Below are positions 1-44,857 of a stretch of DNA of 44,857 bases, in pieces. A program made the translations under genes and the position numbers. The DNA is from Escherichia phage phiA2-1. The stretch lies in the sequence record OR861626.1; one strand, written 5' to 3'. A model generated the notes under the pieces. That model did not search any database and was not told the origin of the DNA. It worked only from the letters and a program-made list of their open reading frames with translations. The number at the start of each line of letters is the position of its first letter. Within the stretch, counting starts at the first letter, position 1.

Positions 1-600
1 AAAGGCCTGGCTGAGTTGTGTGATGATAGCGAAGGATTCGGTGCTGCTAGATTGCGGCTTGCCCAGGTTGATAACAATAGCGGAGTTGGTCAGGCAATTG
101 GCATTGACGCGGAGTCTGAAGAGTATAGCGTTCTAAACTCTGATATTGGCGGGATTGATGCGTTCCTGGATAAGAAGTTTGACAGAATCGTTGCGCTGAG
201 CGGTATTCATGAAATCATCCTGAAGAACAAGAACGTTGGTGGAGTGTCATCAAGCCAGAGTACAGCGCTTGAGACATTCCATAAGCTAGTCGACCGCAAG
301 CGTAACGCTGAACTACTGCCGATTCTCGGGTTCCTGATTCCGTTCATTTCAGACGAGCAAGAATGGTCAGTAGAGTTTAACCCCCTCGCTCAGGAGTCGA
401 GCAAGGATAAAGCTGAGATTCTGGAGAAGAACGTAAACAGCATTGCAGCACTAATTGCAGCTGGAGCTATGGATACTAACGAAGCACGTGATACACTACG
501 CACTATCGCACCAGAGATTAAGATTAGTGAAGCTTCAATTGTAACTGAGCAGCCAGTTCAGGAAGAATCACCAAAGGAGGAGATTGTAATTGAAAGCTAA
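1..600 (+). CDS. Portal protein, C-terminal part (continues in-frame from 44192..44857 across the window junction)
   Basis: Reading frame is open from nt 1 with no upstream stop; last complete codon of the 3'-end ORF ends at 44857 and phase continues at nt 1; combined length ~420 aa; sits between terminase large subunit and head genes. Confidence 0.6.
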   Translation, partial: KGLAELCDDSEGFGAARLRLAQVDNNSGVGQAIGIDAESEEYSVLNSDIGGIDAFLDKKFDRIVALSGIHEIILKNKNVGGVSSSQSTALETFHKLVDRKRNAELLPILGFLIPFISDEQEWSVEFNPLAQESSKDKAEILEKNVNSIAALIAAGAMDTNEARDTLRTIAPEIKISEASIVTEQPVQEESPKEEIVIES

Positions 601-1702
601 AATGCGTTACGACAGCGCTAAAGTTAAAGCGCGATTTGACGAAAACGGCTTTCTGGTAGACACGCCAGTTGTTGCTCGTGTAGGCGTGCAATCATACTAC
701 CTGCCAGATGGCTCGGAACGACGCGAATTTAGGCCAGCATCAGAGGTCTTTAAAGCAGATTCACTTGCCAGTTATCAGGGCAAGCCGATTACATTGGGTC
801 ACGTGTTTGTTAACTCTGATAACGCTAAAGATGTGGTTATTGGAGCAGTTTCAGGCGCAGCATTGCGTCAGGATTCAAATGTTGTGGTTCCACTAACAGT
901 TTATGATAAGGAGTCAATCGAGAAAGCTAAATCTGGCCTTGCCGCCGAGTTATCTGTAGGTTACTCAACTGTTGATGTTGAATCTCCAGGCTGGGGTAGC
1001 AATGATACTGGAGAGTACAAGTTAGATGGAGAGTATGATTCTCAAAACGACATTCCGCCTGACTGGGTTCGTTTTGATGCACTGCAAACTAACATTATTG
1101 TTAATCACGTCGCAATGGTATACAAAGGTCGGGCAGGTGTTGCAAAATTGAATATGGACGCAGAACAGGAAAACCCGTATACTGACAGCGTTGATTCTAT
1201 TAAAGAGGATGTTAAAGAAATGGTTAAGATTAAACTGGATGGCGCACAGGAGTTCGAAATCGCTCCAGAAGTTGCCGCACACATTGAAGCTATTAAAAAG
1301 GATGCAGTTGACGCTAAAACCAAAGCTGACTGCATTGAAGCTGAGCGTGACGCACTTAAAGCTAAAGTTGACGCGATGCCTGCTGAAATTGAGAAAGCTG
1401 TCAAGGCTGCTAAAGCTGATTCCGAAGCACTTGCCGCACTGGTTACTGTAGCCGCTGAAGCTGGTGTTAAGACTGATGGTCTGGATACTAAGGGCATCAA
1501 AGTAGCATACGTTAAAGAAGTTTCTGGCCTTGATGTTTCCGAGAAGTCTGACGCATACATCGACGCAGCGTTCGACATTGCCAAAGATTCTGATAAAATG
1601 GCTGAAGTTCGCAAAGCAACCGCAGCTTCCGACAAATCTGACGCTACCGACGCACCTAATAAATTAGACCCGCGCGCTCGTCTGGCTAAAATTAAAAAGT
1701 AA
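590..1702 (+). CDS. Head morphogenesis protein (scaffold/prohead-protease-like; Ala/Lys-rich coiled-coil C-terminal half)
   Basis: 370-aa ORF directly after portal; AAGGAGG 9 nt upstream of TTG start; C-terminal region of low complexity typical of scaffolding proteins. Confidence 0.4.
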   Translation: MKAKMRYDSAKVKARFDENGFLVDTPVVARVGVQSYYLPDGSERREFRPASEVFKADSLASYQGKPITLGHVFVNSDNAKDVVIGAVSGAALRQDSNVVVPLTVYDKESIEKAKSGLAAELSVGYSTVDVESPGWGSNDTGEYKLDGEYDSQNDIPPDWVRFDALQTNIIVNHVAMVYKGRAGVAKLNMDAEQENPYTDSVDSIKEDVKEMVKIKLDGAQEFEIAPEVAAHIEAIKKDAVDAKTKADCIEAERDALKAKVDAMPAEIEKAVKAAKADSEALAALVTVAAEAGVKTDGLDTKGIKVAYVKEVSGLDVSEKSDAYIDAAFDIAKDSDKMAEVRKATAASDKSDATDAPNKLDPRARLAKIKK

Positions 1703-1713
1703 GGAGATAGACA

Positions 1714-2208
1714 ATGGCAATTCGTTCTGTAGCACTGGCAGGCATGGTAGCTGATACTTCCCTGTATAATATCGATGGCGCTTGCGTTGTTGGCGGCACG
1801 GATCCAATCAATGTTGGTGTAGCCGTTTCCGTAACCGAAGACCCTGCAATTGATGGTCACAAGGTTGTTAGCGCAGTAAATAAAGAAGGTAGCGCTTACG
1901 GTGTGGTCGTTCGCTCTCATTACGAGACTCCAGATGGCACCGCTAAAGCTAAGGAGGCTGTTAACGTAATGACAGCTGGTCGCATTTGGATGAAGGCAGC
2001 AGCAGCAATTACCGCCGCAAATCGCGCTGTTGGTAAACCAGTATCTGTTAATGCCGCAGGTTTGGTTGTTAATGAAGCATCCGCTCGTGCAGGAGCTTTC
2101 ACTACCGGATGGACTTTTGCTGGCGGCTACATCGCTAACACTGGTAGTGACCCGCAAAACCTTAGCGTAGATGGCGCTCTGGTTGAGGTTCAGGTCAAGC
2201 AGAAGTAA
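1714..2208 (+). CDS. Putative head structural/decoration protein
   Basis: 164-aa ORF with RBS (AAGGAG), between scaffold-like and capsid genes; Gly/Ala/Val-rich. Confidence 0.3.
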   Translation: MAIRSVALAGMVADTSLYNIDGACVVGGTDPINVGVAVSVTEDPAIDGHKVVSAVNKEGSAYGVVVRSHYETPDGTAKAKEAVNVMTAGRIWMKAAAAITAANRAVGKPVSVNAAGLVVNEASARAGAFTTGWTFAGGYIANTGSDPQNLSVDGALVEVQVKQK

Positions 2209-2227
2209 TAAATATCTCAGCATAAAT

Positions 2228-2252
2228 AAACCTCCTTCGGGAGGTTTTTTTT
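2228..2252 (+). terminator. Rho-independent terminator
   Basis: GC hairpin AAACCTCC-TTCG-GGAGGTTT followed by T8. Confidence 0.55.
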
Positions 2253-2308
2253 GTGATCAAATCACGCCTATGTTATATTTAAACCTCACTTAATAAAGGG
2301 TATTAATT

Positions 2309-2881
2309 ATGGCTTATACCGAAGTTAAGGCTATCAGTGCAGATAGCGAACGATTCAATACACTGCTTCAAGATGCCATCGATGCTGGTTTTCAGCCGGT
2401 AAGTAAAATCACGGTAAATGGCTCTCAGTCATATTCCGTCGTTGTCGCGAAAGGTGCCGACAGTTCGATCACAAATGCAAAGGTGATCACCTCCACCAAT
2501 ATGCGCAAGCTGTTCGAAGCTATTGAAGCTGCATCTGATGACGGCTTCACCATTGACACATCAAACCTGAGCCTTACTGCCGGTCAGTTCTTTGCTTATG
2601 CATATAAAGGCAGTGTTGGCGGTTCTGTTTCTGTGGCGTGGGGAGACGTAACTGGCAAGCCAACCACTTTTGCGCCAATTGTTGGCGCTGGCGCTACTGA
2701 CGCAATGCCAGGTAACAAGTTTGTTGCTGGCGCAGCAGTTGATAAAGTTGGCGACCAGACTGTGACTGGCGCTGATGCAGGAGAGGTGGCAGAAACAGCT
2801 ACAAAAGCTGTTAACGCGGTAGCTGCCAAGTTAAATGAACTTCTCGAACAGCTGCGAGTCACCAAGATCATTGCGGGCTAA
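2309..2881 (+). CDS. Hypothetical structural protein
   Basis: 190-aa ORF in head gene block. Confidence 0.3.
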   Translation: MAYTEVKAISADSERFNTLLQDAIDAGFQPVSKITVNGSQSYSVVVAKGADSSITNAKVITSTNMRKLFEAIEAASDDGFTIDTSNLSLTAGQFFAYAYKGSVGGSVSVAWGDVTGKPTTFAPIVGAGATDAMPGNKFVAGAAVDKVGDQTVTGADAGEVAETATKAVNAVAAKLNELLEQLRVTKIIAG

Positions 2882-2972
2882 CACCAGATGGCGGCCAACT
2901 TATCTGTTGATTTGTGGTCGCCCTGCTGTATAATTGATTCGTACATACCTAACTGAAAAGGAATAAACAAGA

Positions 2973-3914
2973 ATGGCCATTAAATTTGATGCAGAACAAG
3001 CAAAAATCACCGCTCACCTTGAGCAAATGGGTGTAGATAAAGCTGATGCTGCTGGTATCTGGACTGTCAAGCAGTTGACCGCCAACCTGGCGCGTGCGTA
3101 CGAAGCAGAGTATTCGGAAAACTCCGTAGTTAATATCTTCCCAGTAACTAACGAAATCCCGGCCCACGCAAAGTATTTTGAGTATCCTGAGTTTGACGGA
3201 ACCGCAATCGCACAGATTATCGCTGATTACTCTGATGACTTGCCGCTGGTTGATGCGTTCATGACTGAGAAACAAGGTAAAGTGTTCCGTTTTGGTAACG
3301 CATTCCTGATCTCCACTGATGAAATTAAAGCTGGTGCAGCAACTGGTCAGTCACTGTCATCTCGCAAACAGGCTCTGGCATTCGAAGCGCACGACAACCT
3401 GCTCGACAAACTGGTATGGTCTGGATCTGCACCGCACGGCATTCCTAGCGTATTCAATGCGCCGAACGTTAACCAGGTTGTTGCTGGTGTGTGGAACTCC
3501 GCGGCTGCTGCTATGACTGATATCACGGCACTTATCGATGCTATCGAAACAGCGACAAATGGCGCCCATACCGCGACTGATATCCTGCTGCCTGCTTCTG
3601 CTCGCCGCCTGATGCAAGAACTGGTTCCGAACACCTCTATCAGCTACGCGCAGTTGTTTGCAACCAATAACTCCGGCATTACTCTGCGCTATCTGCAGTT
3701 CCTGGATAACTACGATGGTGCTGGCGGTAAGGCTGCACTGGCATTTGAAAAGAATCCTCTCAACATGAGTATTGAGATTCCGGAAGCTACTAATGTGCTC
3801 CCTGGTCAGGCGAAAGATTTGCACTTCAAGTACCCAGTCACCTCAAAAGCGACAGGTTTGATTATCTATAGACCGCTAACTGTTTCCGTCCTTAAAGGTA
3901 TCACCTACGCCTAA
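2973..3914 (+). CDS. Major capsid protein (putative)
   Basis: 313-aa ORF in the expected position; preceded by a TATAAT -10-like element and followed by a strong terminator, consistent with a highly expressed late gene. Confidence 0.55.
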   Translation: MAIKFDAEQAKITAHLEQMGVDKADAAGIWTVKQLTANLARAYEAEYSENSVVNIFPVTNEIPAHAKYFEYPEFDGTAIAQIIADYSDDLPLVDAFMTEKQGKVFRFGNAFLISTDEIKAGAATGQSLSSRKQALAFEAHDNLLDKLVWSGSAPHGIPSVFNAPNVNQVVAGVWNSAAAAMTDITALIDAIETATNGAHTATDILLPASARRLMQELVPNTSISYAQLFATNNSGITLRYLQFLDNYDGAGGKAALAFEKNPLNMSIEIPEATNVLPGQAKDLHFKYPVTSKATGLIIYRPLTVSVLKGITYA

Positions 3915-3920
3915 TAAATT

Positions 3921-3943
3921 GCCCTCTACTGAGGGCTTTTTTT
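3921..3943 (+). terminator. Rho-independent terminator
   Basis: GCCCTC-TACT-GAGGGC hairpin plus T7. Confidence 0.55.
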
Positions 3944-4007
3944 CGCCTGTACCAAAATGATATGATGGGTTATAATCAACCATCAATTAATAAAAGGAGA
4001 GCAACAA

Positions 4008-4253
4008 ATGATTCGTTTAGAACACACTGGCGCTTGCATGATTACATTTCGCGGTGTGAATTATATGCCAGGTGAATTCATCGAGGTTGAGGAAATCAAC
4101 GCTGGACTTAAAAGCCTGATTGCAGAAGGCCGCTTGCAGATTGATGGTGACACCAAGGCAACTAAAGAAATTGTCGCAGATGTTAAATCAAAGTCTAAGC
4201 GCAAAGAACCTAAGACTATTGACGAAGCTCAGACTGGTCAGGAATATAAATAA
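4008..4253 (+). CDS. Hypothetical protein
   Basis: 81-aa ORF with AAGGAG RBS; preceded by TATAAT element. Confidence 0.35.
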   Translation: MIRLEHTGACMITFRGVNYMPGEFIEVEEINAGLKSLIAEGRLQIDGDTKATKEIVADVKSKSKRKEPKTIDEAQTGQEYK

Positions 4254-4260
4254 CCAAATG

Positions 4261-4283
4261 GGCGCTTCGGCGTCCGTTTTTTT
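4261..4283 (+). terminator. Rho-independent terminator
   Basis: GGCGC-TTCG-GCGTCC hairpin plus T7, followed by GGAGG RBS of the next gene. Confidence 0.5.
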
Positions 4284-4294
4284 ATGGAGGTTTT

Positions 4295-4693
4295 ATGAAC
4301 GAACAAGCATTAGCCTTTATGAGGTCACTTGTTCCTGCTCTGCGTAATGTTCCAGATGAAACGTTGGACGTATGGCTTGAACTGGCTAAGCTTTACATCT
4401 GCACAGGTAAGTTTGGTGACGACGCTTACAAGGCTCTGGCGCTATACACTTTGCACATTGCCTTTCTTGACGGCGCGCTTAAGCAGAATGAGTCGCTGGA
4501 TGATTACGGGAAGAAAGTGGCAAGTTACTCTCTGAGCGGTGAATTCTCTATTAGCTATGAATCTACATCTCAAACTCAATCATCGCTTACGGCTACCCCA
4601 TGGGGACGACTTTACTGGAATCTTCTGCGTAAGAAAGGTGGCGGCTTTGGGTTGATTACTTCCGCTTCTGGCGGTGGGTGCGGTTGCCGATGA
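4295..4693 (+). CDS. Head-tail connector protein (putative)
   Basis: 132-aa ORF between capsid and tail genes; stop overlaps next start (ATGA). Confidence 0.35.
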   Translation: MNEQALAFMRSLVPALRNVPDETLDVWLELAKLYICTGKFGDDAYKALALYTLHIAFLDGALKQNESLDDYGKKVASYSLSGEFSISYESTSQTQSSLTATPWGRLYWNLLRKKGGGFGLITSASGGGCGCR

Positions 4694-5061
4694 ACTACAA
4701 CGAAATCGAATCAATCACTCGCGCTGGCATTAACTTCTTTAGTGATGCAAATGGCGTTTACGAAATGAGCACTGGCGATGGATATGTTGAAATCGTTAAC
4801 GGCGTTGAAGTAGAGGTGCCAGCGCAAACATTTCAGCTTAATGGTTTGGTGCGAGAAATAAAGACGCGAGATATCGATGGTGAGTTTATCCAGTTTGGCG
4901 ATAAGCGCGGAATCTTCACGGCCCAGGCAGAAATCAAGCAGGGTTATCAGATTAAGGTTGATGGTGAGACTTTTGTTGTTGTTGATCCCCGCCCAGTTAA
5001 ACCGACTGGTACAGTTGTTGGGTATAGACCGATTCTTCGTAGGGTGGCTACTTATGGCTAG
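4690..5061 (+). CDS. Head-tail adaptor / head closure protein (putative)
   Basis: ORF in track from 4678; ATG at 4690 overlaps the upstream stop (ATGA). Confidence 0.3.
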   Translation: MNYNEIESITRAGINFFSDANGVYEMSTGDGYVEIVNGVEVEVPAQTFQLNGLVREIKTRDIDGEFIQFGDKRGIFTAQAEIKQGYQIKVDGETFVVVDPRPVKPTGTVVGYRPILRRVATYG

Positions 5062-5491
5062 AAATATTGGAAGCGTCGCTACGTTTGAGAAATCTATTGC
5101 TGACTGGATTAACAGAGCAGATAATGGATTTGAAATTGTAGTCGCCAGCACGGTTACCAAGACAGCCAACGCAATTGTGGACCTATCCCCGGTCGATACT
5201 GGTAGGTTCAAGGCTAACTGGCAAATCACCGCAAACTCACCAGCTCAGCAATCACTGAATGAGTACGATCAGACTGGTGGGCAGACAAAAACATATCTCG
5301 CCAGACAGGCTAGAGCGGTCGCTAACTCAAAAGCTACTAGTGTTATTTATATTACTAACCGACTTGATTACGCTTCCGACCTTGAGTATGGGGCTTCGAA
5401 TCAGGCTCCGGCTGGCGTACTTGGCGTGGTGCAAGCAAGGTTGGGTAGGTATTTCCAGGAAGCGGTAGAGGAGGCTCGTCGTGCAATATGA
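5054..5491 (+). CDS. Tail component (HK97 gp10-like, putative)
   Basis: Track ORF 4877..5491; likely start ATG 5054 (MARNIGSV...) overlapping upstream stop. Confidence 0.35.
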   Translation: MARNIGSVATFEKSIADWINRADNGFEIVVASTVTKTANAIVDLSPVDTGRFKANWQITANSPAQQSLNEYDQTGGQTKTYLARQARAVANSKATSVIYITNRLDYASDLEYGASNQAPAGVLGVVQARLGRYFQEAVEEARRAI

Positions 5492-25958: not shown

Positions 25959-26434
25959 TTGCTTAACCCGTGATTTTCGTGAAAGTTGTATTTTCTCTCT
26001 GCTTCAATTCTTACTTTATACGCCTGCTCTGGAGTATCGAAGTTCCCAAGGTGTAGCTGCTTGCCGTCAACCTTGATGTGAGCCTTAAATTTTCCGTGAT
26101 TTAGCTTTACCACTCCACAATAACCAGTTGTTGATAAAACGCTAAGATTGCAATTTCTTGAGTTACCTTGATTTGTTGTTACTCTTAGGTTTTCTATTCT
26201 GTTATCTAATTTGTTATGGTTTATATGATCAATGTAGTCGCCATTTTGAAGTTCTCCATTAAACATCTCCCACACAACTCTATGTACATAAGTCCTAAGG
26301 CCATTAACAGACACTTTGTAATAGCCAGATGTAGATAGTGAGTTGCACTCATCGCCAACCTTAACACGTCTTGCAGTGCTAATCTTCCAATGCAATTTGC
26401 CATCTACATAGTAAAAATAATCATGCCAGTTCAT
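25955..26434 (-). CDS. HNH homing endonuclease (HNH plus AP2-like region)
   Basis: Motifs HRVVWEMFNG, IDHINHN, NLRVT; third paralog of the same family. Confidence 0.7.
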   Translation of the reverse strand: MNWHDYFYYVDGKLHWKISTARRVKVGDECNSLSTSGYYKVSVNGLRTYVHRVVWEMFNGELQNGDYIDHINHNKLDNRIENLRVTTNQGNSRNCNLSVLSTTGYCGVVKLNHGKFKAHIKVDGKQLHLGNFDTPEQAYKVRIEAERKYNFHENHGLSK

Positions 26435-36475: not shown

Positions 36476-36620
36476 TTCTCGCCTTCTCAATCGCCTTCAG
36501 CATAACCTCGTGAGACTCAAGCAGATCCTCGTTGAACCAGTCTCCGCAAGGCCAACCATTTCCGCTGTATGCGGCCACAACACTTAAGTCGTAGTAGTTA
36601 ATATCAGATGGTAATAGCAT
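36471..36620 (-). CDS. Small ORF (49 aa), not in ORF track
   Basis: Hand translation; stop TAA lies within the cassette box. Confidence 0.25.
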
Positions 36621-36622
36621 TA

Positions 36623-36823
36623 TTAAATCACCTTAAAAGTTGCAATACCGTGGATGATGACGTAATCAAGGCATTTAAGCGCCTGAAACGTATCGTGATG
36701 CTTGTGTGGGCGGTCTCCTGTAACAAGGCACATGTCATCTTTGAAATCGGTAGCATTGTATTCAGACCCCTTATTGAATGCGTCTTTAAAGTCTTTAATG
36801 ATGTTAGTGCAAAGAAGTTTCAT
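36623..36823 (-). CDS. Hypothetical protein
   Basis: 66-aa ORF. Confidence 0.3.
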   Translation of the reverse strand: MKLLCTNIIKDFKDAFNKGSEYNATDFKDDMCLVTGDRPHKHHDTFQALKCLDYVIIHGIATFKVI

Positions 36824-36824
36824 G

Positions 36825-37043
36825 TTAATCCTCTAAAATTTCAAAAATCAATCGACCTTTAATCGCAGCAATAACAAGGCCATTTTCGATGTAGCAGAAA
36901 ATTGGTCTGAAGTTATCGCCAAACACGTAACCATGAACTTCATCATAACTGTAATGCTTCCCACTGCTAAATTCCCAGGTTCCATCATTAAGATTATTTA
37001 AGCACTTAACTTTCATTTCTTCATTCCTTACCAGGGTAAACAT
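36825..37043 (-). CDS. Hypothetical protein
   Basis: 72-aa ORF. Confidence 0.3.
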   Translation of the reverse strand: MFTLVRNEEMKVKCLNNLNDGTWEFSSGKHYSYDEVHGYVFGDNFRPIFCYIENGLVIAAIKGRLIFEILED

Positions 37044-37249
37044 TCATAGCAACCAAGGCCATCACAACATAGATAATCATCATCTGACTGGAATTGCTTA
37101 GCCAGGTCAATATCGATGCGTCCGCGCAAAACCATATCAGTGTAATCATGGTTAAGTCCAATCAGCGAACATTCCTGCTTTAGTTGCTCAAGTGCTTCAC
37201 CTTTAAGTTTCATATTAGCTCCAGGAGTTGATGTAAATTGAGTTGTCAT
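37028..37249 (-). CDS. Hypothetical protein
   Basis: 73-aa ORF. Confidence 0.3.
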   Translation of the reverse strand: MTTQFTSTPGANMKLKGEALEQLKQECSLIGLNHDYTDMVLRGRIDIDLAKQFQSDDDYLCCDGLGCYECLPW

Positions 37250-37439
37250 TTAACAGGATAATCATCTCAGCGCGATTAAGGCTGCGAACGATTGAGCCCG
37301 TGTGAGTGCCAATAACGTATCGGTAGAACTCACGGCGCGTGATGGTGATTTGACTTACTCCAGCCGAACGGCCCAGCTTGATAACTGCGTGACCCCTGGC
37401 TTCGATATGCATCATTACGTTCTGGGCTTTGATTGACAT
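37215..37439 (-). CDS. Hypothetical protein
   Basis: 74-aa ORF, first gene downstream of minus-strand cassette at 37450..37521. Confidence 0.3.
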   Translation of the reverse strand: MSIKAQNVMMHIEARGHAVIKLGRSAGVSQITITRREFYRYVIGTHTGSIVRSLNRAEMIILLNDNSIYINSWS

Positions 37440-37449
37440 TTTTACTTCC

Positions 37450-37521
37450 TCTTATGTACTTCGTTTCGATGAGATGATTATGGTCTCCTTGCCAATGAAT
37501 GTCTTTAGCAAAAAGTGCTAT
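37450..37521 (-). promoter_or_regulatory. Promoter-like cassette (minus orientation)
   Basis: Minus strand AATAGCACTTTTTGCTAAAG, ~24 nt, CATAAT, CATCGAAACGAAG leader. Confidence 0.45.
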
Positions 37522-38149
37522 TCGTTGGATTTATTGATTGTTGAAGCTACTGCAATGATTCACATCATTATTGCACGTATAGCAATATTGCATTTAATGC
37601 AATGATGTTTTTGATTGTTGCAGAATTTGCAATGATTGATGTGGGATTGAATGAATAGAGGATGGACTACCATACAAGTTGATTTTGATTCTGGCTGAGC
37701 CACTTTTCTGTATACGCGTAACGCCTGTATACTCACTGTAGTCACAAAAGTAAGTGACCACTAACATACGTTTTTTACGCAGCATATACACTTGACATAC
37801 ACTATAAGTATATAATATATATATACTTCTTCTTTATTATTATTATTATTATTATATGTATACCGTGTATACCGCTCATTGATGGAATAGTTGATATGTT
37901 CCTCTGTTATATTCTGACACACGTCAGAATTGGATGACACTTGTCAGAATAAAAAGGCGCATATATAGGAAATCAGCTCAAAAAACCGTATACAGAGGAT
38001 ACTGCAAGGTTACAACCAGTGCTGGCGCGGCTTTGAGTGCCGAAGGGCGTAACTATGATGAAATATACTAAAATATACATTGACAGACACGTAAATCACT
38101 GGCACTATAGCAATCACTGAAACGCAGTACACAACAACGAGGTATTGAG
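37522..38149. promoter_or_regulatory. Large divergent control region with direct repeats, inverted repeats and a (TTA)7 tract
   Basis: TGCAATGAT x3 (about 37550, 37597, 37627); TGTATAC x4; GTCACAAAAGTAAGTGAC; TTGACA and TATAAT; (TTA)7 at about 37834..37856; GTCAGAAT x2. Confidence 0.45.
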
Positions 38150-38698
38150 ATGCAGAAAGTAACGCTTGGTGAAGTTATTCGTGAGATGGTACGAAAGGCG
38201 ATGGAATCGGAAAGTGGTGAGTTTAAGGTTCCAGTCAGCCAGATATTCAAAATGATTCGCGGAAGGTCGTACCCGGAAATGGAGTATGACACTGAGACGG
38301 ATGAGATATTGAATTTGGCAGACCGGTCATTACCTGAGCTTAAGAACTCATACATCTACAACACCGTGTCACGAATGACAGACTTACGAGACGCAAACAA
38401 GAGGGCGCGATATAAATTTATCTGGATTGATGACGAAGGAGAGCAGACAAACGCAAGGCAATTTGATGGTGATGGTGCTGATAAGTACTTGGTTATATAC
38501 ATTGAGAACGGTGCGCACTGGACTGGCAATCGGGAGAAGAAGAAACAAGAAGCTCAGAAAGAGGCGACCACCATTGAAAGGTTCAAGGCCAGAATCCTGA
38601 AACTCATGCCATCAGTGACTGAATTTGAAGGCGATGAGATTTCCGGTGCTATCAAGGCAATCAAAATGTACCAGGAAATGATTAAGGAGACAAAATAA
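38150..38698 (+). CDS. Hypothetical protein (first gene after control region)
   Basis: 182-aa ORF. Confidence 0.4.
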   Translation: MQKVTLGEVIREMVRKAMESESGEFKVPVSQIFKMIRGRSYPEMEYDTETDEILNLADRSLPELKNSYIYNTVSRMTDLRDANKRARYKFIWIDDEGEQTNARQFDGDGADKYLVIYIENGAHWTGNREKKKQEAQKEATTIERFKARILKLMPSVTEFEGDEISGAIKAIKMYQEMIKETK

Positions 38699-39120
38699 TG
38701 TTTAACTTTAGCGATAACAAGCTCACCACTGAAGAAATTATTAAAATCGCTGAGAGTGATGGGCTTCCAGTTATCAGCGTGGCAATCGAAGCGAATGGAT
38801 ACAAGCACTCTCAATACTTATGGGGTCACATTGGTGTATATGATGTTTTCAAGGGTAGCGACCTTGCGATTATTATTAAGAATCTCGAAAAGTTCAGCAA
38901 AAGCGGAAGCTATGTGGTTACTGTGAAGACACTGCACGAAAGCGTATTCGCCATGCGAGAAATCGGGCCACATGAAAGGCTTCATGATGAACTTATTCCG
39001 CAACTTGAGGTGATGAACATTGCTTTCCTTATCGGCAATAATATTTACATTAATCCTGCTCTTGCAGATTCAAGCTGGAATCCTAATTTTAAAGCCCGAG
39101 AAGATGAGCACCCTAGTTGA
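38698..39120 (+). CDS. Truncated paralog of the 34227..35810 helicase (N- and C-terminal segments only, no ATPase core)
   Basis: MFNFSDNKLTTEEIIKIAESDGLP...AIEANGYKHSQ aligns with MFDFNEDKLSVEQVMAIAANDNLP...AINANGYRQSQ; C-terminal LIGNNIYINPAL aligns with LIGDKIYINPRL. Confidence 0.45.
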   Translation: MFNFSDNKLTTEEIIKIAESDGLPVISVAIEANGYKHSQYLWGHIGVYDVFKGSDLAIIIKNLEKFSKSGSYVVTVKTLHESVFAMREIGPHERLHDELIPQLEVMNIAFLIGNNIYINPALADSSWNPNFKAREDEHPS

Positions 39121-39205
39121 CTACCATACCACCTACGGCACAATGAGGGAGAGGTTGAGGCTGCAATAGAGTTCTATTGGAAAGCTAAATTACTCCTGAA
39201 CGGAA

Positions 39206-39260
39206 AATGGCACGAATTGTCAAACCTTCCTCAAGGCCATTTGATATAGTGGCCTTATTG
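39206..39260 (+). promoter_or_regulatory. Promoter-like cassette variant
   Basis: AATGGCACGAATTGTCAAAC, 22 nt, TATAGT; inverted repeat AAGGCCA/TGGCCTT spans the -10. Confidence 0.45.
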
Positions 39261-39282
39261 AAGCAAAGTTAGAGAGGATAGA

Positions 39283-39513
39283 ATGGAGAGGAATAAATAT
39301 GAAAGAGAAATTATTGGGCTTAATGGCGAGCGTGCTATTATTGATGTGTATCGCACGCTATCAGCATTCGACGTTACAGACCCAGCGTGCCAACATGCTA
39401 TCAAAAAGCTATTGTGTATGGGGCTGCGAGGCCACAAAGACATTATAACAGACCTTGATGACGCAATAGACTCACTAAACAAGATGAAAACTTACCTGGA
39501 GCAAACGAAATGA
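39283..39513 (+). CDS. Hypothetical protein
   Basis: 76-aa ORF. Confidence 0.35.
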   Translation: MERNKYEREIIGLNGERAIIDVYRTLSAFDVTDPACQHAIKKLLCMGLRGHKDIITDLDDAIDSLNKMKTYLEQTK

Positions 39514-39743
39514 TTACAATTAACCTGTCAGACAAGCAAGCCACAATTCTTAAGCAGCTAATCTCAAGTCAGCCAATGCAGTGCTCGGCGGTCGAGTTCT
39601 CAGAGATGGTCAAAGAGGTTTGTACTCAAATCAACAATCAGCAGTTCGATGTGTCAGACTTCGAGTCATCACGCCAGTACGAATCTCTAAGCATTAAGAA
39701 TGCTGGATACCTCGATAACTGGGATAAGGCGACTAAGAAATGA
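39510..39743 (+). CDS. Hypothetical protein
   Basis: 77-aa ORF overlapping neighbours. Confidence 0.35.
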   Translation: MITINLSDKQATILKQLISSQPMQCSAVEFSEMVKEVCTQINNQQFDVSDFESSRQYESLSIKNAGYLDNWDKATKK

Positions 39744-39928
39744 AAGATATTAAAACTACAGATAGAAGCGATGACGCCATGACGTTCCAGGTGAGCAGCC
39801 AGACAGCAAAAGAGCACATGAACAAACTGGAGTCATTTGGGATTGACGTTTCTGGATTTGGTGTTAATTGCACAAGTGCAGCTAATACAACCAAGAGTTG
39901 GAGATTTGATAAGGAGTTCAATAAATGA
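39740..39928 (+). CDS. Hypothetical protein
   Basis: 62-aa ORF. Confidence 0.35.
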   Translation: MKDIKTTDRSDDAMTFQVSSQTAKEHMNKLESFGIDVSGFGVNCTSAANTTKSWRFDKEFNK

Positions 39929-40074
39929 TTTACATCCACACGTACTACACTGGCAAATTCAACAGCGTTAAGCACGTTTCGGTGCATCAGAAGAAGAGCG
40001 ACGCAATTAAGCAATATGAGGTTCTTGGCGGTGTAGTTATTGAGGTAATGAAAGCCAGATTGATCCTGAGCTAA
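39925..40074 (+). CDS. Small ORF (49 aa), not in ORF track
   Basis: AAGGAG RBS; ATG overlaps upstream stop (ATGA). Confidence 0.3.
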   Translation: MIYIHTYYTGKFNSVKHVSVHQKKSDAIKQYEVLGGVVIEVMKARLILS

Positions 40075-40075
40075 A

Positions 40076-40140
40076 AATAGCACGAATTGCTAAACAATCG
40101 CCGGAGCAATCCGGCATAATTACCACTTCGAAACGACAGG
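40076..40140 (+). promoter_or_regulatory. Promoter-like cassette
   Basis: ATAGCACGAATTGCTAAAC, 22 nt (contains CCGGAGCAATCCGG), CATAAT, CTTCGAAACGACA leader. Confidence 0.45.
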
Positions 40141-40158
40141 AGGAGGGGAGGAGGGGAA

Positions 40159-40338
40159 ATGAGATTTCAACAATCAGAACCAAAACTACAAGCTAACCAC
40201 TTCGATGGTTACGCAACATTCATCATTGCCCAGGTATGCGGGATGAGTGACGAGCCACAGGTTCACACTGTTCACTTAACCGAAGAGCAAGCTCGAGAGA
40301 TGGCATACGAAATTCTTGAGCAATTGAATAAGATTTAA
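40159..40338 (+). CDS. Small ORF (59 aa), not in ORF track
   Basis: Preceded by purine-rich GGAGGAGGGGAGGAGGGG RBS region. Confidence 0.35.
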   Translation: MRFQQSEPKLQANHFDGYATFIIAQVCGMSDEPQVHTVHLTEEQAREMAYEILEQLNKI

Positions 40339-40835
40339 CGCTTCTAGAACGAATTCTAACGAACAATAATTTAAGTAAGGTGATTCATCATGGAAGCACA
40401 AGAAAGCCCTGTAGAGTGGTGCAGGAGAATGCAGGACGAAGCAAAGACTGGTGAAGAGGCGATGGCCTACTACGAGCTGGCTAAAATGTGGATGGAGCGG
40501 GGGAAGAAACAATGAGCTTAACTGAATACGTTATCGCATGTGAACGACTGGTCTTTGATATGAAGACTTTCCACTTGTTCATCATTAATGATTTAATTAA
40601 GCCTTATAAGCAGGGTGTGAAACCTGAGGAATTTATCAAGAACTTCTATAGCACTAAAAGCTAAATACAGCCGCCACGGATGGCATACAATAACCCAATC
40701 AACACAACGAGAGATTGAGATATGACAAGTTATGGTTCTTACACACTTGGTGAGCTATATGACGCTTATTACTCATGGGGTTCAGCATCAGAATGCGATG
40801 CAGACACAAAGTCAGTAATAATTGAGGATTGAGAA

Positions 40836-41072
40836 ATGTTCGGACTAAATGAAGCGATGTTCAATGCGGTAAAGCGTCAGGCAGATAGACTTAACGACGA
40901 GTACGGGAAGCTAGGCACAAAAAAGAAGGATGATAAGGTTGTGGCTGCACTGATTACTCAGGTTTGGGGACCGGTATCAACACTAATTGCTCGAGACAAA
41001 TTTATTTGGATTGCTGGTTATCGAAAAGGTCGCGTTGGTCATGACGAGAATGGGAATAGTCTTTATGAGTAA
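40836..41072 (+). CDS. Hypothetical protein
   Basis: 78-aa ORF. Confidence 0.3.
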   Translation: MFGLNEAMFNAVKRQADRLNDEYGKLGTKKKDDKVVAALITQVWGPVSTLIARDKFIWIAGYRKGRVGHDENGNSLYE

Positions 41073-41655
41073 ATTAGATGACGCTTTAGCATGGTTCGCT
41101 TACGGGTTGATTGTTGGTGGGGGGATAACTTTAATATGCCTGGTGGTGGTGCTATGAGTGAGTTAACAATCTGGTTTATCGCAGGGCTGGTTACTTGGGC
41201 TTACTTCCTGGTGGCAGCATGAGAGCGTTGAGAAAGATTTTTTACGGCTGCAAAAAGCATCACTACGTTTACTTTCGTGATATTGAATGGTTCGAGGAGG
41301 CTAATTGAAAGTATGGTTTTAAAACAAAGTTAATATGCAAGAAATGCCGGCACATTGAGAGCAGCAGGGTTGGCGTGATGATTTGCCGCAGCACACTTGA
41401 CGACATTGCGTATGGAAAGCTCAAACATCCACCAGTTAAGCCTTAACTGTTAAAAAGAGCTTGCATCACTGACTGGAAACTTCTAATATTAACCACGTAG
41501 ACAAACGAGGCCACCATGTGGCAACGGCGCACGGAGCGCAACTACTAAGTCCGTTGCTCATTAAGTAGCGTATGCGGCATTAAGACCTAGCGCAAATAGG
41601 CATATTAACCGGCTGTATCAGGCAACCCCGGAGCCGTAACCGGGACTCATTCAAG

Positions 41656-41733
41656 GCTCTGCTAGCTCAATTGGATAGAAGCAACGACCTTCTAAGTCGT
41701 AGGTTACTGGTTCGAATCCAGTGCGGAGCGCCA
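41656..41733 (+). tRNA. tRNA-Arg (anticodon UCU), CCA encoded
   Basis: Hand-folded cloverleaf: acceptor GCTCTGC/GCGGAGC (one G-U), D-arm with GG, anticodon stem ACGAC/GTCGT with loop CTTCTAA, T-arm ACTGG-TTCGAAT-CCAGT, 3' GCCA. Confidence 0.7.
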
Positions 41734-41748
41734 ATAAAGGAGTTCATT

Positions 41749-41931
41749 ATGTGGGATGTGAAGTTGTCCATTCGCTTAATGGGCCGCAGTTGCAAGAGTT
41801 GCACTCAAGATTACATCGCGTCAGTTGCCGCAATCAGCGCTGAGGATGCGGTAGCGAAAGTAAAAGAGATGTCGGGCGCTGACCCTGGCACTCACAAATT
41901 CCTGGTAGCTTACGTTCGTGAGCGAAAGTAA
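41749..41931 (+). CDS. Hypothetical protein
   Basis: Track ORF from 41671 overlaps the tRNA; ATG 41749 with AAAGGAG RBS is the credible start. Confidence 0.4.
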   Translation: MWDVKLSIRLMGRSCKSCTQDYIASVAAISAEDAVAKVKEMSGADPGTHKFLVAYVRERK

Positions 41932-41975
41932 AAAGTGTTATACCCTCGTTAAGTTTCGTTTCTCTCGTTGTTTTT

Positions 41976-42000
41976 AGCCCTCGCTTGAGGGCTTTTTTTC
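41976..42000 (+). terminator. Rho-independent terminator
   Basis: AGCCCTC-GCTT-GAGGGCT plus T7. Confidence 0.55.
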
Positions 42001-42010
42001 GTCTGTAATA

Positions 42011-42019
42011 TGGTATAAT
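42011..42019 (+). promoter_or_regulatory. Extended -10 promoter element (TGGTATAAT) upstream of the terminase genes
   Basis: TGnTATAAT match; similar terminator/TATAAT/AAGGAG arrangement to that upstream of 4008. Confidence 0.35.
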
Positions 42020-42043
42020 CTGGCATCAACAAAGGAGGATTAA

Positions 42044-42550
42044 ATGAGCAAAGCAGCATTAAAGATGGGTGAGGGAAACTTCAAGGCGCTTTACAACAAG
42101 AAGTATGGCGATATTGCTATGGTTGCAATCAACCGCAAGTACACGCCAGAAGAGGTGTTTAATTTTGCCGTTAGATACTTCTCCTGGGCTGAGGGTGAGG
42201 CAATTAAAGCTATCGAGACAGCGGCTTTCCAGGGTGTGGTTAGTGAAAGCCTGGTGCACAAGCCTCGGGTATTCACCTTAACTGGCCTGGCACTCTTCAT
42301 GGGTGTTAATATCAATAGGTTCGCTCGCTGGCGCGGTGAGGCTGGGTACTCTGACGTGATGGAGTTTATTGATAACGTAATCTATGAGCAGAAATATCAG
42401 CTTGGCGTTGCAGGTATTATCAACTCCACCATCGTTGGTAAAGAGCTTGGCATTGATAAGCCGCAGGAGATTACCATTAGCAACAACTCCACAGCTAACG
42501 ACGTTGATAGCATGAAGGAAGCGCTGGAATCTGTGATAAGTAAGTTATAA
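42044..42550 (+). CDS. Terminase small subunit (putative)
   Basis: 168-aa ORF immediately upstream of terminase large subunit; AAGGAGG RBS; HTH-like FTLTGLALFMGVNINRFARWR. Confidence 0.55.
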   Translation: MSKAALKMGEGNFKALYNKKYGDIAMVAINRKYTPEEVFNFAVRYFSWAEGEAIKAIETAAFQGVVSESLVHKPRVFTLTGLALFMGVNINRFARWRGEAGYSDVMEFIDNVIYEQKYQLGVAGIINSTIVGKELGIDKPQEITISNNSTANDVDSMKEALESVISKL

Positions 42551-42568
42551 CAACAAGAGGGCATAACA

Positions 42569-44143
42569 ATGAGTGACGTTTTGGTCTGGGAGGAACTATC
42601 CCAATCAGAGAAGCAAGCCGTCAAGCTTCTGTCTACGCATAACTTCGAGACTTTCCTTCGGGTATGGTTTAGCCTTACCCAGGGCCAGAAGTACATAATG
42701 AACTGGCATCATAGATACCTGTGCAGAATAGTTGACGAAATTATAAGCGGTGAGAGAAAGGATACAATCATTAACGTATCGCCTGGAGCTGGTAAAACCG
42801 AGATTACATCCATCCACTTTCCAGTTTACAGTTATCTAAAACTACCAAAAGTGCGAAACCTTAGCCTGTCATTCTCTGACAGCCTGGTTAAGCGAAACTC
42901 AAAGCGAGTTCGTGACCTAATTAAGTGCCAGGAGTTTCAGGAGCTATTCCCAAGCAAGTTTGGCACTTGTAAGGATGACGAAATTCAGGTTCTTGATGAG
43001 TCAGGCAAAGTGCGGTTTGAGTCGATATCAAAGGCTATTGGTGGCCAAATAACTGGGTCACGCGGCGGCTACATTACCGACACTTACAGTGGCTGTCTAA
43101 TGCTGGATGACGTTGATAAAGTCGATGATATGCTCAGTAAGGTTCGCCGCGAGTCGGTTCATATGCTTCTGAAGAACACCATTCGCTCTCGTAGGGCCAG
43201 CTCGGTCAAGGGGAGGGCCACGCCAATTATTTCCATACAGCAGCGATTGCATGTTAACGACTCAAGTTGGTTCATGGCTGAATCTGGCGGCATGGGGATA
43301 GATTTCGATGTGGTGAAGATTCCAGCAATCGTAACCGAGGATTACATCGACACACTTCCTGACTGGTTAAGGCCACACTTCGAGGCTGACGTTCTATCTA
43401 GCGAGTACATCGAGCGGGATGGGGTTAAATACTACAGCTACTACCCACAGAAGGAATCAATTCACGATTTAATGGCAATGCAAGACGCCGACCCATACAC
43501 GTTCGCAAGTCAATATATGCAAAGCCCCATAGCTCTCGGCGGCAACATGGTGGATACGGATTGGTTTATTCGTTACGGTGGGGATTTGCGAGCGCCATTG
43601 AAGTATGATTACCGATTCATTACTGCGGATACCGCACTTACCACGAAGTCATACAGTGACTTTAGCGTATTCCAGTTATGGGGAGTAAAAGATAGGAAGC
43701 TATACCTTCTTGATATGGTTAGGGGTAAGTATGAAGCACCCGAGCTTGAGGCGACGCTATTGGATTTTGAAGCAAAAGCAAGAGCCACAAGTCGCGAGGA
43801 GGGAATACTCCGTAAGGTAATTATCGAGAAGAAGGCATCTGGTATTGGCCTAATTCAGTCCGCTGGTAGAGTTATGCGCACACCTATTGAGCCATTCATA
43901 CCAGATACAGATAAGGTTACCAGAGTGCTGTCGGCAATACCTCAGATTAAGGCTGGCAATGTAATGATTCCAGAATCAGCACCGTGGATGAGTGCATTCA
44001 TCTCTGAGTTTTCAGCATTTACAGCAGACATGAGCCACCGCCACGACGACATTGTGGATACAACAACAATGGCAATCAACTGCGAACTAAACCTTGCAGA
44101 TGACCCTAAATCTCGAATGTTACGCCTCGCGGGAATTAAATAA
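42569..44143 (+). CDS. Terminase large subunit
   Basis: 524 aa; Walker A-like VSPGAGKTE; C-terminal nuclease-like acidic residues; followed by portal. Confidence 0.75.
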   Translation: MSDVLVWEELSQSEKQAVKLLSTHNFETFLRVWFSLTQGQKYIMNWHHRYLCRIVDEIISGERKDTIINVSPGAGKTEITSIHFPVYSYLKLPKVRNLSLSFSDSLVKRNSKRVRDLIKCQEFQELFPSKFGTCKDDEIQVLDESGKVRFESISKAIGGQITGSRGGYITDTYSGCLMLDDVDKVDDMLSKVRRESVHMLLKNTIRSRRASSVKGRATPIISIQQRLHVNDSSWFMAESGGMGIDFDVVKIPAIVTEDYIDTLPDWLRPHFEADVLSSEYIERDGVKYYSYYPQKESIHDLMAMQDADPYTFASQYMQSPIALGGNMVDTDWFIRYGGDLRAPLKYDYRFITADTALTTKSYSDFSVFQLWGVKDRKLYLLDMVRGKYEAPELEATLLDFEAKARATSREEGILRKVIIEKKASGIGLIQSAGRVMRTPIEPFIPDTDKVTRVLSAIPQIKAGNVMIPESAPWMSAFISEFSAFTADMSHRHDDIVDTTTMAINCELNLADDPKSRMLRLAGIK

Positions 44144-44149
44144 GCGTGA

Positions 44150-44180
44150 TAAACTAGCCTCGTGTATGGGGCTTTTTTAT
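44150..44180 (+). terminator. Weak terminator-like hairpin plus T-run before portal
   Basis: AGCCTCGTGTATGGGGCTTTTTTATTGGAG, resembling the cassette upstream of gene L (11498..11531). Confidence 0.3.
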
Positions 44181-44191
44181 TGGAGAAAAAC

Positions 44192-44857
44192 ATGGTCAAG
44201 ACAGACAGCTACGCCAACATCTTTCTCGGCGGTAGTGATGGTAGTGAGATTTACGGGAGTTTACAGAATCAGGCACCTACAATTCTGGCCTCGCTTTATG
44301 CGGATAATGCGCTGGTTCGTAGAATTATCGACACAATCCCGGAGACGGCATTAGCGGCAGGATTCCACATTGACGGCATTGATGACGAGCCTGAATTCTG
44401 GTCTCGCTGGGACTACCTCGAACTAACAAAACACATCAATGAAGCATGGTCGTGGGCTAGATTATTCGGCGGTTCTGCTATTGTTGCTATCGTTAAGGAC
44501 AATAGAGCACTGACAAGTCCGGTCAGAGAAGGTGCAGGACTTGAAACCGTTCGCGTTTACGACCGCACACAGGTGAAAGTGCAAGCTCGCGAGGAGAATC
44601 CACGTAACACACGTTTTGGTAAGCCTCTAACCTATCGCATCACCACAAACGAAAGCGATATGTTCTACGATGTGCATTACAGCCGCATTCACATCATCGA
44701 TGGCGAGCGAATCCCTAACGTAATGCGTCGGCAAAACGATGGATGGGGCCTTAGCGTTCTCTCCAGTGATATTCTTGACTCAATTAGGGATTACACCAAC
44801 TGTGAGCGACTTGCCACTCAGTTACTGAAGCGTAAGCAACAGGCGGTATGGAAAGCT
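44192..44857 (+). CDS. Portal protein, N-terminal part (runs off window end; continues at 1..600)
   Basis: ATG 44192 after TTGGAG; no stop before the window end; phase continuous with nt 1. Confidence 0.6.
   Translation, partial: MVKTDSYANIFLGGSDGSEIYGSLQNQAPTILASLYADNALVRRIIDTIPETALAAGFHIDGIDDEPEFWSRWDYLELTKHINEAWSWARLFGGSAIVAIVKDNRALTSPVREGAGLETVRVYDRTQVKVQAREENPRNTRFGKPLTYRITTNESDMFYDVHYSRIHIIDGERIPNVMRRQNDGWGLSVLSSDILDSIRDYTNCERLATQLLKRKQQAVWKA

What the first reader, a model, noticed from the sequence alone, without database searches (positions are those of the whole stretch)
44192..44857. Portal ORF is split by the window ends and is in phase across the junction
The portal ORF starting at 44192 has no stop before the window end. 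The last complete codon ends at 44857 and the frame is open from nt 1 to the stop at 598..600, giving a ~420-aa portal. The window therefore appears to be a complete genome opened at an arbitrary point, consistent with circular permutation and headful packaging.
Basis: seen in the sequence. Interest (0 to 1): 0.35.

Follow-up and report, generated by a model that had tools for sequence, protein, structure and literature searches.

The report
Portal gene split by arbitrary linearisation
The window is a complete, circularly closed assembly of a T1-like E. coli phage that happens to have been cut open inside its portal gene, which is an ordinary bookkeeping artefact and not a biological feature.

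Summary
An ORF starting at ATG 44192 runs 222 codons to the last base of the window. Frame 1 then continues from nt 1 to TAA 598-600. The joined product is 421 aa.

The join is real DNA. The joined 1266-nt gene is identical (0 differences) to an uninterrupted gene in an independent SRA assembly. That contig aligns at 99.9% in one block straight across the junction. The protein matches the portal family in one piece and aligns to the solved phage T1 portal with no gap at residue 222|223.

The window is collinear with T1 around the whole circle, so it is a complete Drexlerviridae (Braunvirinae, Rtp-like) genome.

The headful interpretation is supported, but by other evidence. TerL and TerS are 57% and 52% identical to T1's, TerS is P22 gp3-like, and relatives are shown experimentally to use pac-initiated headful packaging. 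In-phase closure alone would not distinguish headful from cos or terminal-repeat genomes.

Refinement: permutation in this family is limited. The likely packaging start maps to about 37.58-37.69 kb, roughly 7.2 kb upstream of the window end.

Verdict: ordinary, already known, low interest.

The parts
44192..44857 (+). 5' part of the portal gene (codons 1-222)
   Evidence: This stretch translates as an open frame. It is identical to L006 7624-8289. T1 portal residues 3-222 map here.
1..600 (+). 3' part of the portal gene (codons 223-421 and the TAA stop at 598-600)
   Evidence: This stretch translates as an open frame ending in TAA. T1 portal residues 224-402 map to nt 1-537. The protein alignment shows no gap at 222|223.
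44156..44181 (+). Terminator-like hairpin and T-run between the terL stop and the portal start
   Evidence: The consensus scan finds it. T1 has an annotated terminator in the same position, at 10545-10573.
42569..44143 (+). Terminase large subunit (TerL)
   Evidence: It hits Pfam Terminase_6C and PHROG 38 at 1.1e-108. It is 57% identical over full length to T1 TerL.
42044..42550 (+). Terminase small subunit (TerS), P22 gp3 type
   Evidence: It hits Pfam GP3_package PF16677 and PHROG 606. It is 52% identical to T1 TerS. It matches PDB 3p9a, P22 gp3, at E = 3.1e-15.
590..1702 (+). Prohead protease (DUF2213); its TTG start overlaps the portal stop by 11 nt
   Evidence: It hits Pfam DUF2213 and PHROG 530 at 1.2e-111. 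An independent gene call in L006 at 8879-9991 gives the same start. It is 55% identical to the T1 protease.
37500..37720 (+). Predicted pac / first-cut zone, with packaging inferred to run rightward. It lies in the 710-nt intergenic region 37440-38149 between divergent gene blocks.
   Evidence: Four start points map here. Rtp record nt 1 maps to 37581, T1 nt 1 to about 37588, the MSK PhageTerm start (36,862) to 37670, and SU57 nt 1 to about 37688. The motif GATTGTTGC-N6-TGCAATGATTG sits at 37613-37638 and at T1 27-52, and each part occurs once in each genome. Direct repeats are spaced 77 nt apart, and TGCAATGAT occurs three times. Function is inferred, not shown.

Best explanation
The window is the unit-length genome (44,857 bp) of a virulent T1-like siphophage of E. 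coli (Drexlerviridae, Braunvirinae, close to Rtpvirus). It was assembled into a closed circle and then written out linearly from a point that happens to lie between codons 222 and 223 of the portal gene. Nothing biological happens at that point. In the real DNA the portal gene is continuous and encodes a 421-aa homologue of T1 gp52, which forms the dodecameric portal.

The assembly closes into a circle because virion DNA of this family is terminally redundant. A P22-gp3-type small terminase recognises a pac region on a replication concatemer. The large terminase makes the first cut there and then fills several heads in succession, each with slightly more than one genome length. Virion molecules therefore have redundant ends and a limited circular permutation, and reads from them tile a circle.

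By homology, the first cut in this phage lies near nt 37,580-37,690 and packaging runs rightward toward terS, terL and the portal. The window ends sit about 7.2 kb downstream of it.

Shown here:
- exact circular closure;
- portal identity;
- terminase homology;
- homology of the pac zone to the start points used for four related phages.

Inferred:
- that this particular phage packages by pac-initiated headful;
- the cut position;
- the packaging direction.
For: Closure:
- The joined gene is identical to L006, and the junction 60-mer is exact in four independent assemblies.
- L006 gives a single 13.6-kb HSP at 99.9% across the junction.
- Single-piece megablast alignments cross the junction in many phage records.

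Portal:
- Family and structure matches.
- 882 phage records match the joined protein in one place at 80% coverage or more.
- The alignment has no gap at the junction, and the flanking motif QQAVWK(A/V)K.LA..CDD is conserved even in T1.

Completeness:
- T1 proteins map collinearly round the circle.

Packaging:
- Terminase homology.
- Literature on T1 and TLS (PMC11447400), KanT1 (PMC13164509), SU57 (PMC7718038), MSK and Rtp (PMC8421802), and 7WV, where two contigs opened in different places allowed closure (PMC13035648).

Pac zone:
- Mapping of four record or read-based start points, and shared motifs.

Arbitrary opening:
- No terminal repeat and nothing repeated at the break.
- Scattered opening points in sister records.
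Against: No sequencing reads or virion DNA are available for this genome. Terminal redundancy, permutation and the cut position are therefore not observed directly.

PhageTerm results in relatives are not uniform. MSK gave a forward start, while KanT1 and 7WV gave no assignable terminus.

I take the T1 record start to be the pac-proximal end. That rests on its repeat_region annotation and on statements in secondary papers, not on the primary mapping paper, which I could not read.
Confidence: 0.93

Rival explanations
1. The genome is complete and the opening is arbitrary, but the phage has fixed ends (cos overhangs or short exact direct terminal repeats collapsed by the assembler) and does not package by headful.
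For: A circular assembly is produced equally by cos, direct-terminal-repeat and headful genomes, so the in-phase closure does not discriminate. PhageTerm failed to assign a mechanism in some relatives.
Against: TerL and TerS are full-length orthologues of T1's, at 57% and 52% identity. TerS is of the P22 gp3 family. Restriction evidence for a submolar pac fragment and for permutation exists for TLS and SU57 and is cited for T1. MSK, an Rtp-like phage, gave a forward-only start typical of pac packaging.
Confidence: 0.04
2. The break point is not arbitrary. It reflects a physical feature of the packaged DNA, for example the right-hand edge of the terminally redundant region of the first headful, where a coverage step made the assembler or depositor open the contig.
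For: If head capacity equals the 50.9-51.6 kb of TLS and T1, the first headful starting at about 37.6 kb would end at 43.6-44.5 kb. That is 0.4-1.2 kb short of the window end. SU57's authors did choose their start at a coverage step.
Against: The calculation is post hoc and depends on an assumed capacity. It still misses the end by hundreds of bases, and headful cuts are imprecise. Sister records are opened at scattered positions. An independent near-identical contig runs straight through the point.
Confidence: 0.03
3. The two ends do not belong together. The window is a fragment or chimera, and the shared phase is chance (1 in 3).
For: None beyond the prior probability that two unrelated ORFs share a phase.
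Against: The joined gene is identical and contiguous in L006, and the junction 60-mer is present in four assemblies. The halves align to consecutive residues of T1 gp52, 3-222 and 224-402. One Pfam domain spans the join.
Confidence: 0.003

Closest known systems
Phage T1 portal protein gp52 (ST52; PDB 9L01, cryo-EM of the T1 connector, PMC11945409); Pfam PF06381 Phage_portal_3 / DUF1073
   Same: The proteins are about the same length (421 vs 427 aa) and 54% identical. The alignment covers residues 2-410 at E = 4e-145. The gene sits in the same position, after terL and a terminator and before the prohead protease.
   Different: The C-terminal ~25 residues diverge. Here the portal is followed directly by the protease. 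T1, IME253 and Veterinaerplatzvirus have an extra head-morphogenesis gene in between.
Rtp-like coliphages (Drexlerviridae, Braunvirinae: Rtp, IME253, MSK, SU57, vB_EcoS_FP, Veterinaerplatzvirus 12210I group)
   Same: Portals are 90-94% identical. Nt 1-22,000 are 94.9% identical to IME253 over 94% of their length. tRNA-Arg(tct) lies upstream of terS.
   Different: Overall similarity to IME253 is only about 75% by my own VIRIDIC-like calculation. The second half of the genome is mosaic, with a best match of 83% identity over 66%. No identical record exists in the August 2025 phage collection.
pac-initiated processive headful packaging of T1 (Ramsay and Ritchie 1983, as cited in PMC11447400) and P22
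   Same: TerS is of the P22-gp3 type and TerL is T1-type. The region homologous to the T1 and Rtp record starts and to the MSK read-derived start is conserved.
   Different: Packaging has not been demonstrated for this phage. The genome is about 4 kb shorter than T1's. If head capacity is conserved, the terminal redundancy would be larger, at about 13-15% against T1's 5.7% (inference).

Membership tests
Portal protein, PF06381 (Phage_portal_3 / DUF1073), T1 gp52-like | Near-full-length match to the family profile above the curated threshold | tested here: met
   The score is 223.9 bits against a cut-off of 33.8. Residues 33-370 match profile positions 4-355 of 357 as a single stretch across the junction. 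PHROG 146 gives 6.7e-126.
Portal protein, PF06381 (Phage_portal_3 / DUF1073), T1 gp52-like | Homology to a protein shown by structure to be the portal of a virion | tested here: met
   9L01, the T1 connector with portal gp52 as a dodecamer (PMC11945409), gives E = 4e-145. 9jlf/9kmh give E = 9.5e-148.
Portal protein, PF06381 (Phage_portal_3 / DUF1073), T1 gp52-like | Position in the head module: terS, terL, portal, protease, major capsid protein | tested here: met
   The order is confirmed. The same order is seen in the independent contigs L006-L009.
Portal protein, PF06381 (Phage_portal_3 / DUF1073), T1 gp52-like | Forms a dodecameric ring at one capsid vertex | not testable with these tools
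   This needs virion structure or biochemistry. It is inferred from 54% identity to T1 gp52.
pac-type headful packaging (T1 / P22 type) | Small terminase of the P22 gp3 family and large terminase orthologous to a phage with demonstrated headful packaging | tested here: met
   TerS hits PF16677 and PDB 3p9a. TerS is 52% and TerL 57% identical to T1's.
pac-type headful packaging (T1 / P22 type) | The assembly closes into a circle with no fixed ends or terminal repeat in the sequence | tested here: met
   Searches show this. It is necessary but not sufficient, because cos and terminal-repeat genomes can also assemble as circles.
pac-type headful packaging (T1 / P22 type) | A pac region where the first cut is made | tested here: inconclusive
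   A conserved, repeat-bearing zone at 37,500-37,720 is homologous to the start points of T1, Rtp, SU57 and MSK. Cleavage there was not observed for this phage.
pac-type headful packaging (T1 / P22 type) | Terminally redundant, partially permuted virion DNA (submolar pac fragment, coverage step) | not testable with these tools
   This needs reads from virions or restriction analysis. It has been shown for relatives.
Drexlerviridae / Braunvirinae (T1-like, Rtp-like) | Genome-wide collinearity and shared core proteins with T1, and nucleotide similarity to classified members | tested here: met
   35 of 53 T1 proteins tested map to the window, and the 32 that are not HNH homing endonucleases lie in T1 order round the circle. 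Similarity to Rtpvirus IME253 is about 75%. The best DNA hits are all Braunvirinae.
Fixed-end genomes (cos, or direct terminal repeats as in T7 or T5) | Terminal repeat present at the ends of the sequence, or a terminase related to cos or terminal-repeat phages | tested here: not met
   There is no terminal direct repeat of 5-400 nt. The terminase subunits are of the T1 and P22 types.

The most novel reading that the evidence does not exclude
The most novel reading the evidence leaves open lies outside the finding's coordinates. The repeat-bearing stretch at window 37,529-37,640 may be the actual small-terminase recognition (pac) site shared by T1-like phages.

- It contains 30-nt direct repeats spaced 77 nt apart, and TGCAATGAT occurs three times.
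- The motif GATTGTTGC-N6-TGCAATGATTG is shared with T1 nt 27-52.
- It sits 4.4 kb upstream of terS, not inside it as in P22.

The papers I read either left the pac sequence unidentified (SU57) or assigned it only by weak resemblance to P22 (TLS).
Probability: 0.35. Interest if true: 0.3.

Novelty: already known. Interest (0 to 1): 0.05.

Why it matters
The practical value is small. The result tells an annotator to treat the window as circular. The two half-ORFs should be joined into one 421-aa portal gene and not called as two truncated genes. Ideally the sequence should be re-opened at a conventional point, either the terS start or the T1/Rtp-equivalent position near nt 37,581.

The result also shows that the window is a complete genome, so gene-content statements about it are safe. 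It does not reveal any new biology. Split genes at the ends of phage records are routine for terminally redundant, headful-packaging phages.

Tried and rejected
1. I first guessed from memory that the relatives were Dhillonvirus. The record taxonomy showed Drexlerviridae/Braunvirinae instead. The literature search built on that guess was useful only for the T1-like papers it happened to return.
2. An exact search of IMG/VR for a 48-mer spanning the junction found nothing. Exact-protein lookup of TerL then found the independent contigs.
3. TerL against PDB sequences gave no meaningful hit, so no structure-based classification of TerL was possible.
4. I tested whether the first ORF right of the intergenic region (38150-38698, DUF7174) is the homologue of T1 ST77. 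It shows no similarity (E = 0.21). The pac-zone mapping therefore rests on DNA motifs and on closer relatives.
5. I could not retrieve the primary Rtp genome paper or the T1 genome paper (one search was rejected because one search term was too short, and one search returned only citing papers). Statements about them come from secondary citations.
6. I looked for a repeat or other feature at the break point that could explain the opening. None was found.
7. I asked whether the break coincides with a predicted headful end. It is close but not coincident, and the test was post hoc, so I do not rely on it.

Full report
**1. The observation**

- An ATG at 44192 has GGAG 8 nt upstream. It lies 49 nt after the stop of the preceding gene.
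- This ATG opens a frame of 222 sense codons whose last codon ends on the last base, 44857.
- Frame 1 from nt 1 continues for 199 sense codons to TAA at 598-600.
- The other frames close within 3-44 codons at the start of the window and 7-9 codons at its end. Both halves are therefore real coding sequence.
- The joined product is 421 aa.

**2. Is the join real?**

Sharing a phase is a 1-in-3 event for unrelated ORFs, so I tested the join in four independent ways.

- **Family match.** The joined protein gives one uninterrupted match to Pfam Phage_portal_3: 223.9 bits against a cut-off of 33.8, residues 33-370, profile positions 4-355 of 357. It also matches PHROG 146 (portal, E = 6.7e-126, residues 1-413).
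- **Alignment with relatives.** I aligned it with four portals from related phages, including T1 at 54% identity. There is no gap at 222|223, and the flanking residues (RKQQAVWK-A|K-GLAE-CDD) are conserved. T1 portal residues 3-222 map to 44192-44854 and residues 224-402 map to 1-537, so not one codon is missing or duplicated.
- **Related genomes.** A 3-kb query made of the last 1500 and first 1500 bases matches related phage genomes in single pieces that cross the junction. The joined protein matches 882 phage records in one place at 80% coverage or more.
- **Independent assemblies of the same phage.** This is the decisive test. An exact-sequence lookup of the neighbouring TerL found seven contigs from public sequencing runs, and four places were returned. 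In all four, TerL is followed by an uninterrupted 421-aa portal gene. In L006, the joined 1266-nt gene is identical to the window's (0 differences). The 60-mer spanning the junction is present exactly in all four. L006 aligns as one 13,575-nt block at 99.897% to window 36572..44857 followed by 1..5286.

The ends of the window are therefore adjacent in real DNA.

**3. What the genome is**

The nearest records are T1-like coliphages of the Drexlerviridae, subfamily Braunvirinae: IME253 (Rtpvirus), vB_EcoS_FP, the Veterinaerplatzvirus 12210I group, JeanPiccard, TR1-3 and MSK.

Of 53 T1 proteins tested, 35 map onto the window, and the 32 that are not HNH homing endonucleases lie in T1 order all the way round the circle. 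The order is terS, terL, portal, protease, cement protein, major capsid protein, neck and tail proteins, tape measure, tail tip (J), recE/erf, side fibre, primase, helicase, exonuclease, lysis cassette, and second helicase (DNA level).

At 44,857 bp the window is within the 43.4-47.9 kb range of its relatives. Together with the exact closure, this makes it a complete unit-length genome.

The portal itself is a close homologue of T1 gp52, which has been seen as a dodecamer in the cryo-EM structure of the T1 connector (PDB 9L01; PMC11945409).

**4. Is the opening point arbitrary?**

- There is no terminal repeat at the ends.
- No k-mer of 13 nt or more from the junction recurs elsewhere in the genome.
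- Forty-three records of the sister genus, nearly all of one length (44,219 bp), carry the same region at scattered coordinates on both strands. Deposited sequences of this clade are routinely opened wherever the assembler left them.
- One paper on a T1-like phage states that two contigs "opened in a different place" were what allowed closure (PMC13035648).

**5. Packaging mechanism**

The in-phase closure shows only that the assembly is circular. Cos and terminal-repeat genomes also assemble as circles. The evidence for headful packaging is separate.

- TerL is 57% identical over its whole length to T1 TerL. TerS is 52% identical to T1 TerS.
- TerS belongs to the P22 gp3 family (Pfam PF16677; PDB 3p9a, E = 3.1e-15).
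- T1 is the classical example of pac-initiated, processive headful packaging. TLS shows a submolar pac fragment and three or four partly permuted variants (PMC11447400).
- SU57, a member of the Braunvirinae, gives restriction patterns of a permuted genome (PMC7718038).
- MSK, an Rtp-like phage, gave a PhageTerm forward-strand start at position 36,862 of its record (PMC8421802).
- For KanT1, the authors state that T1-like phages lack fixed ends (PMC13164509).

The refinement is that permutation in this family is limited to a short series of headfuls starting at a pac site.

**6. Where the physical start probably is**

I mapped the start points used for related phages onto the window.

| Start point | Position in the window |
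|---|---|
| Rtp record nt 1 (Rtp 1-139 aligns to 37581-37719 at 83%) | 37,581 |
| T1 reference record nt 1 (left edge of its annotated 2.8-kb repeat region) | about 37,588 |
| MSK PhageTerm start (…GGATGGACTA\|CCATACAAGTTGATTTTGATTCT) | 37,670 |
| SU57 record nt 1 (chosen by its authors from PhageTerm and a coverage step) | about 37,688 |

- T1 and the window share the motif GATTGTTGC-N6-TGCAATGATTG, at T1 27-52 and window 37613-37638. Each part occurs once in each genome.
- The zone lies in a 710-nt intergenic region (37440-38149) between divergent gene blocks, as in T1.
- It carries direct repeats spaced 77 nt apart, and TGCAATGAT occurs three times.

I therefore predict that packaging begins near 37.58-37.69 kb and runs rightward. 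That places the window ends 7.17-7.28 kb downstream of the first cut. This is inference from homology. No cleavage was observed for this phage.

**7. A weak coincidence, considered and not relied on**

If head capacity equals that of TLS or T1 (50.9-51.6 kb), terminal redundancy here would be about 6.0-6.8 kb. The first headful would then end at 43.6-44.5 kb, which is 0.4-1.2 kb before the window end. The calculation is post hoc, depends on an assumed capacity, and still misses the end. An independent contig also runs straight through the point. I give this reading about 3%.

**8. Comparison with what is known, and novelty**

Everything here matches known biology of T1-like phages and known behaviour of assemblers. 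The portal is a member of PF06381 and of the T1 gp52 group, and every testable defining feature was met. The packaging class is assigned by homology; its defining physical features could not be tested here.

The phage itself has no identical record in the August 2025 phage collection. It is about 75% similar overall to IME253 by my own VIRIDIC-like calculation, so it may be an undescribed species. That is incidental to the finding.

**9. Verdict**

| Item | Result |
|---|---|
| Observation | confirmed |
| Interpretation | supported, with the two refinements above |
| Novelty | already known |
| Interest | 0.05 |

The useful consequence is for annotation. The genome should be treated as circular, the two halves should be joined into one portal gene, and the sequence should be re-opened at a conventional position.

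Noticed in passing
window 37440-38149: This 710-nt intergenic region lies between divergent gene blocks. It holds the predicted pac zone (37,500-37,720). Features include 30-nt direct repeats spaced 77 nt apart, three copies of TGCAATGAT, and a motif shared with the first 52 nt of the T1 record. The start points of T1, Rtp, SU57 and MSK all map here.
   Followed up: yes
window 37800-37860: An AT-rich low-complexity stretch with (TA)n and (TTA)6 runs sits just right of the predicted pac zone. A similar (TTA)n run is present at the equivalent place in SU57.
   Followed up: no
window 21047-21169: This stretch of about 120 nt is 83-86% identical to the sequence that directly follows the start of the Rtp (170-292) and SU57 (111-187) records. 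In this window it lies about 16 kb away from the pac-equivalent zone, in another intergenic region upstream of ORF 21032-21313. It may be a shared regulatory element that has moved or been duplicated among relatives.
   Followed up: no
window 41656-41733: A tRNA-Arg (anticodon TCT) lies about 310 nt upstream of terS. The same tRNA is annotated at the same place in Veterinaerplatzvirus records.
   Followed up: partly
window 10670-11140 (+), 14275-14763 (+), 25955-26434 (-): Three paralogous HNH homing-endonuclease ORFs are inserted in the tail and replication modules. They are 38-43% identical to T1's HNH genes. IME253 has 'homing endonuclease' genes at the two tail-module positions. Several relatives carry an HNH gene between terS and terL, but this window does not.
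   Followed up: partly
window 590-600: The portal gene is followed directly by the prohead protease, whose TTG start at 590 overlaps the portal stop. T1 (ST51), IME253 and Veterinaerplatzvirus have an extra head-morphogenesis gene of about 730-760 nt between the two. This window, vB_EcoS_FP and JeanPiccard lack it.
   Followed up: partly
window 1-22000 versus 22001-44857: The genome is strongly mosaic. The structural half is 94.9% identical to IME253 over 94% of its length. The best match for the other half is 83% identity over 66%. Whole-genome similarity to IME253 is about 75%. This is probably an undescribed species relative to the August 2025 phage collection.
   Followed up: partly
window (whole), compared with T1: T1's dam methyltransferase, the cor/ST31/ST32 superinfection-exclusion cassette and polynucleotide kinase gave no tblastn hit in the window.
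   Followed up: no
phage collection records MG065663.1 and MG065638.1: Records named 'Campylobacter phage' A134 and A15a carry T1-like portal genes that are 58% and 38% identical to this one. In A15a the match covers only the first 102 residues and ends 2 bases before the end of its 22,680-bp record. The host labels look doubtful for T1-like coliphage sequences.
   Followed up: no
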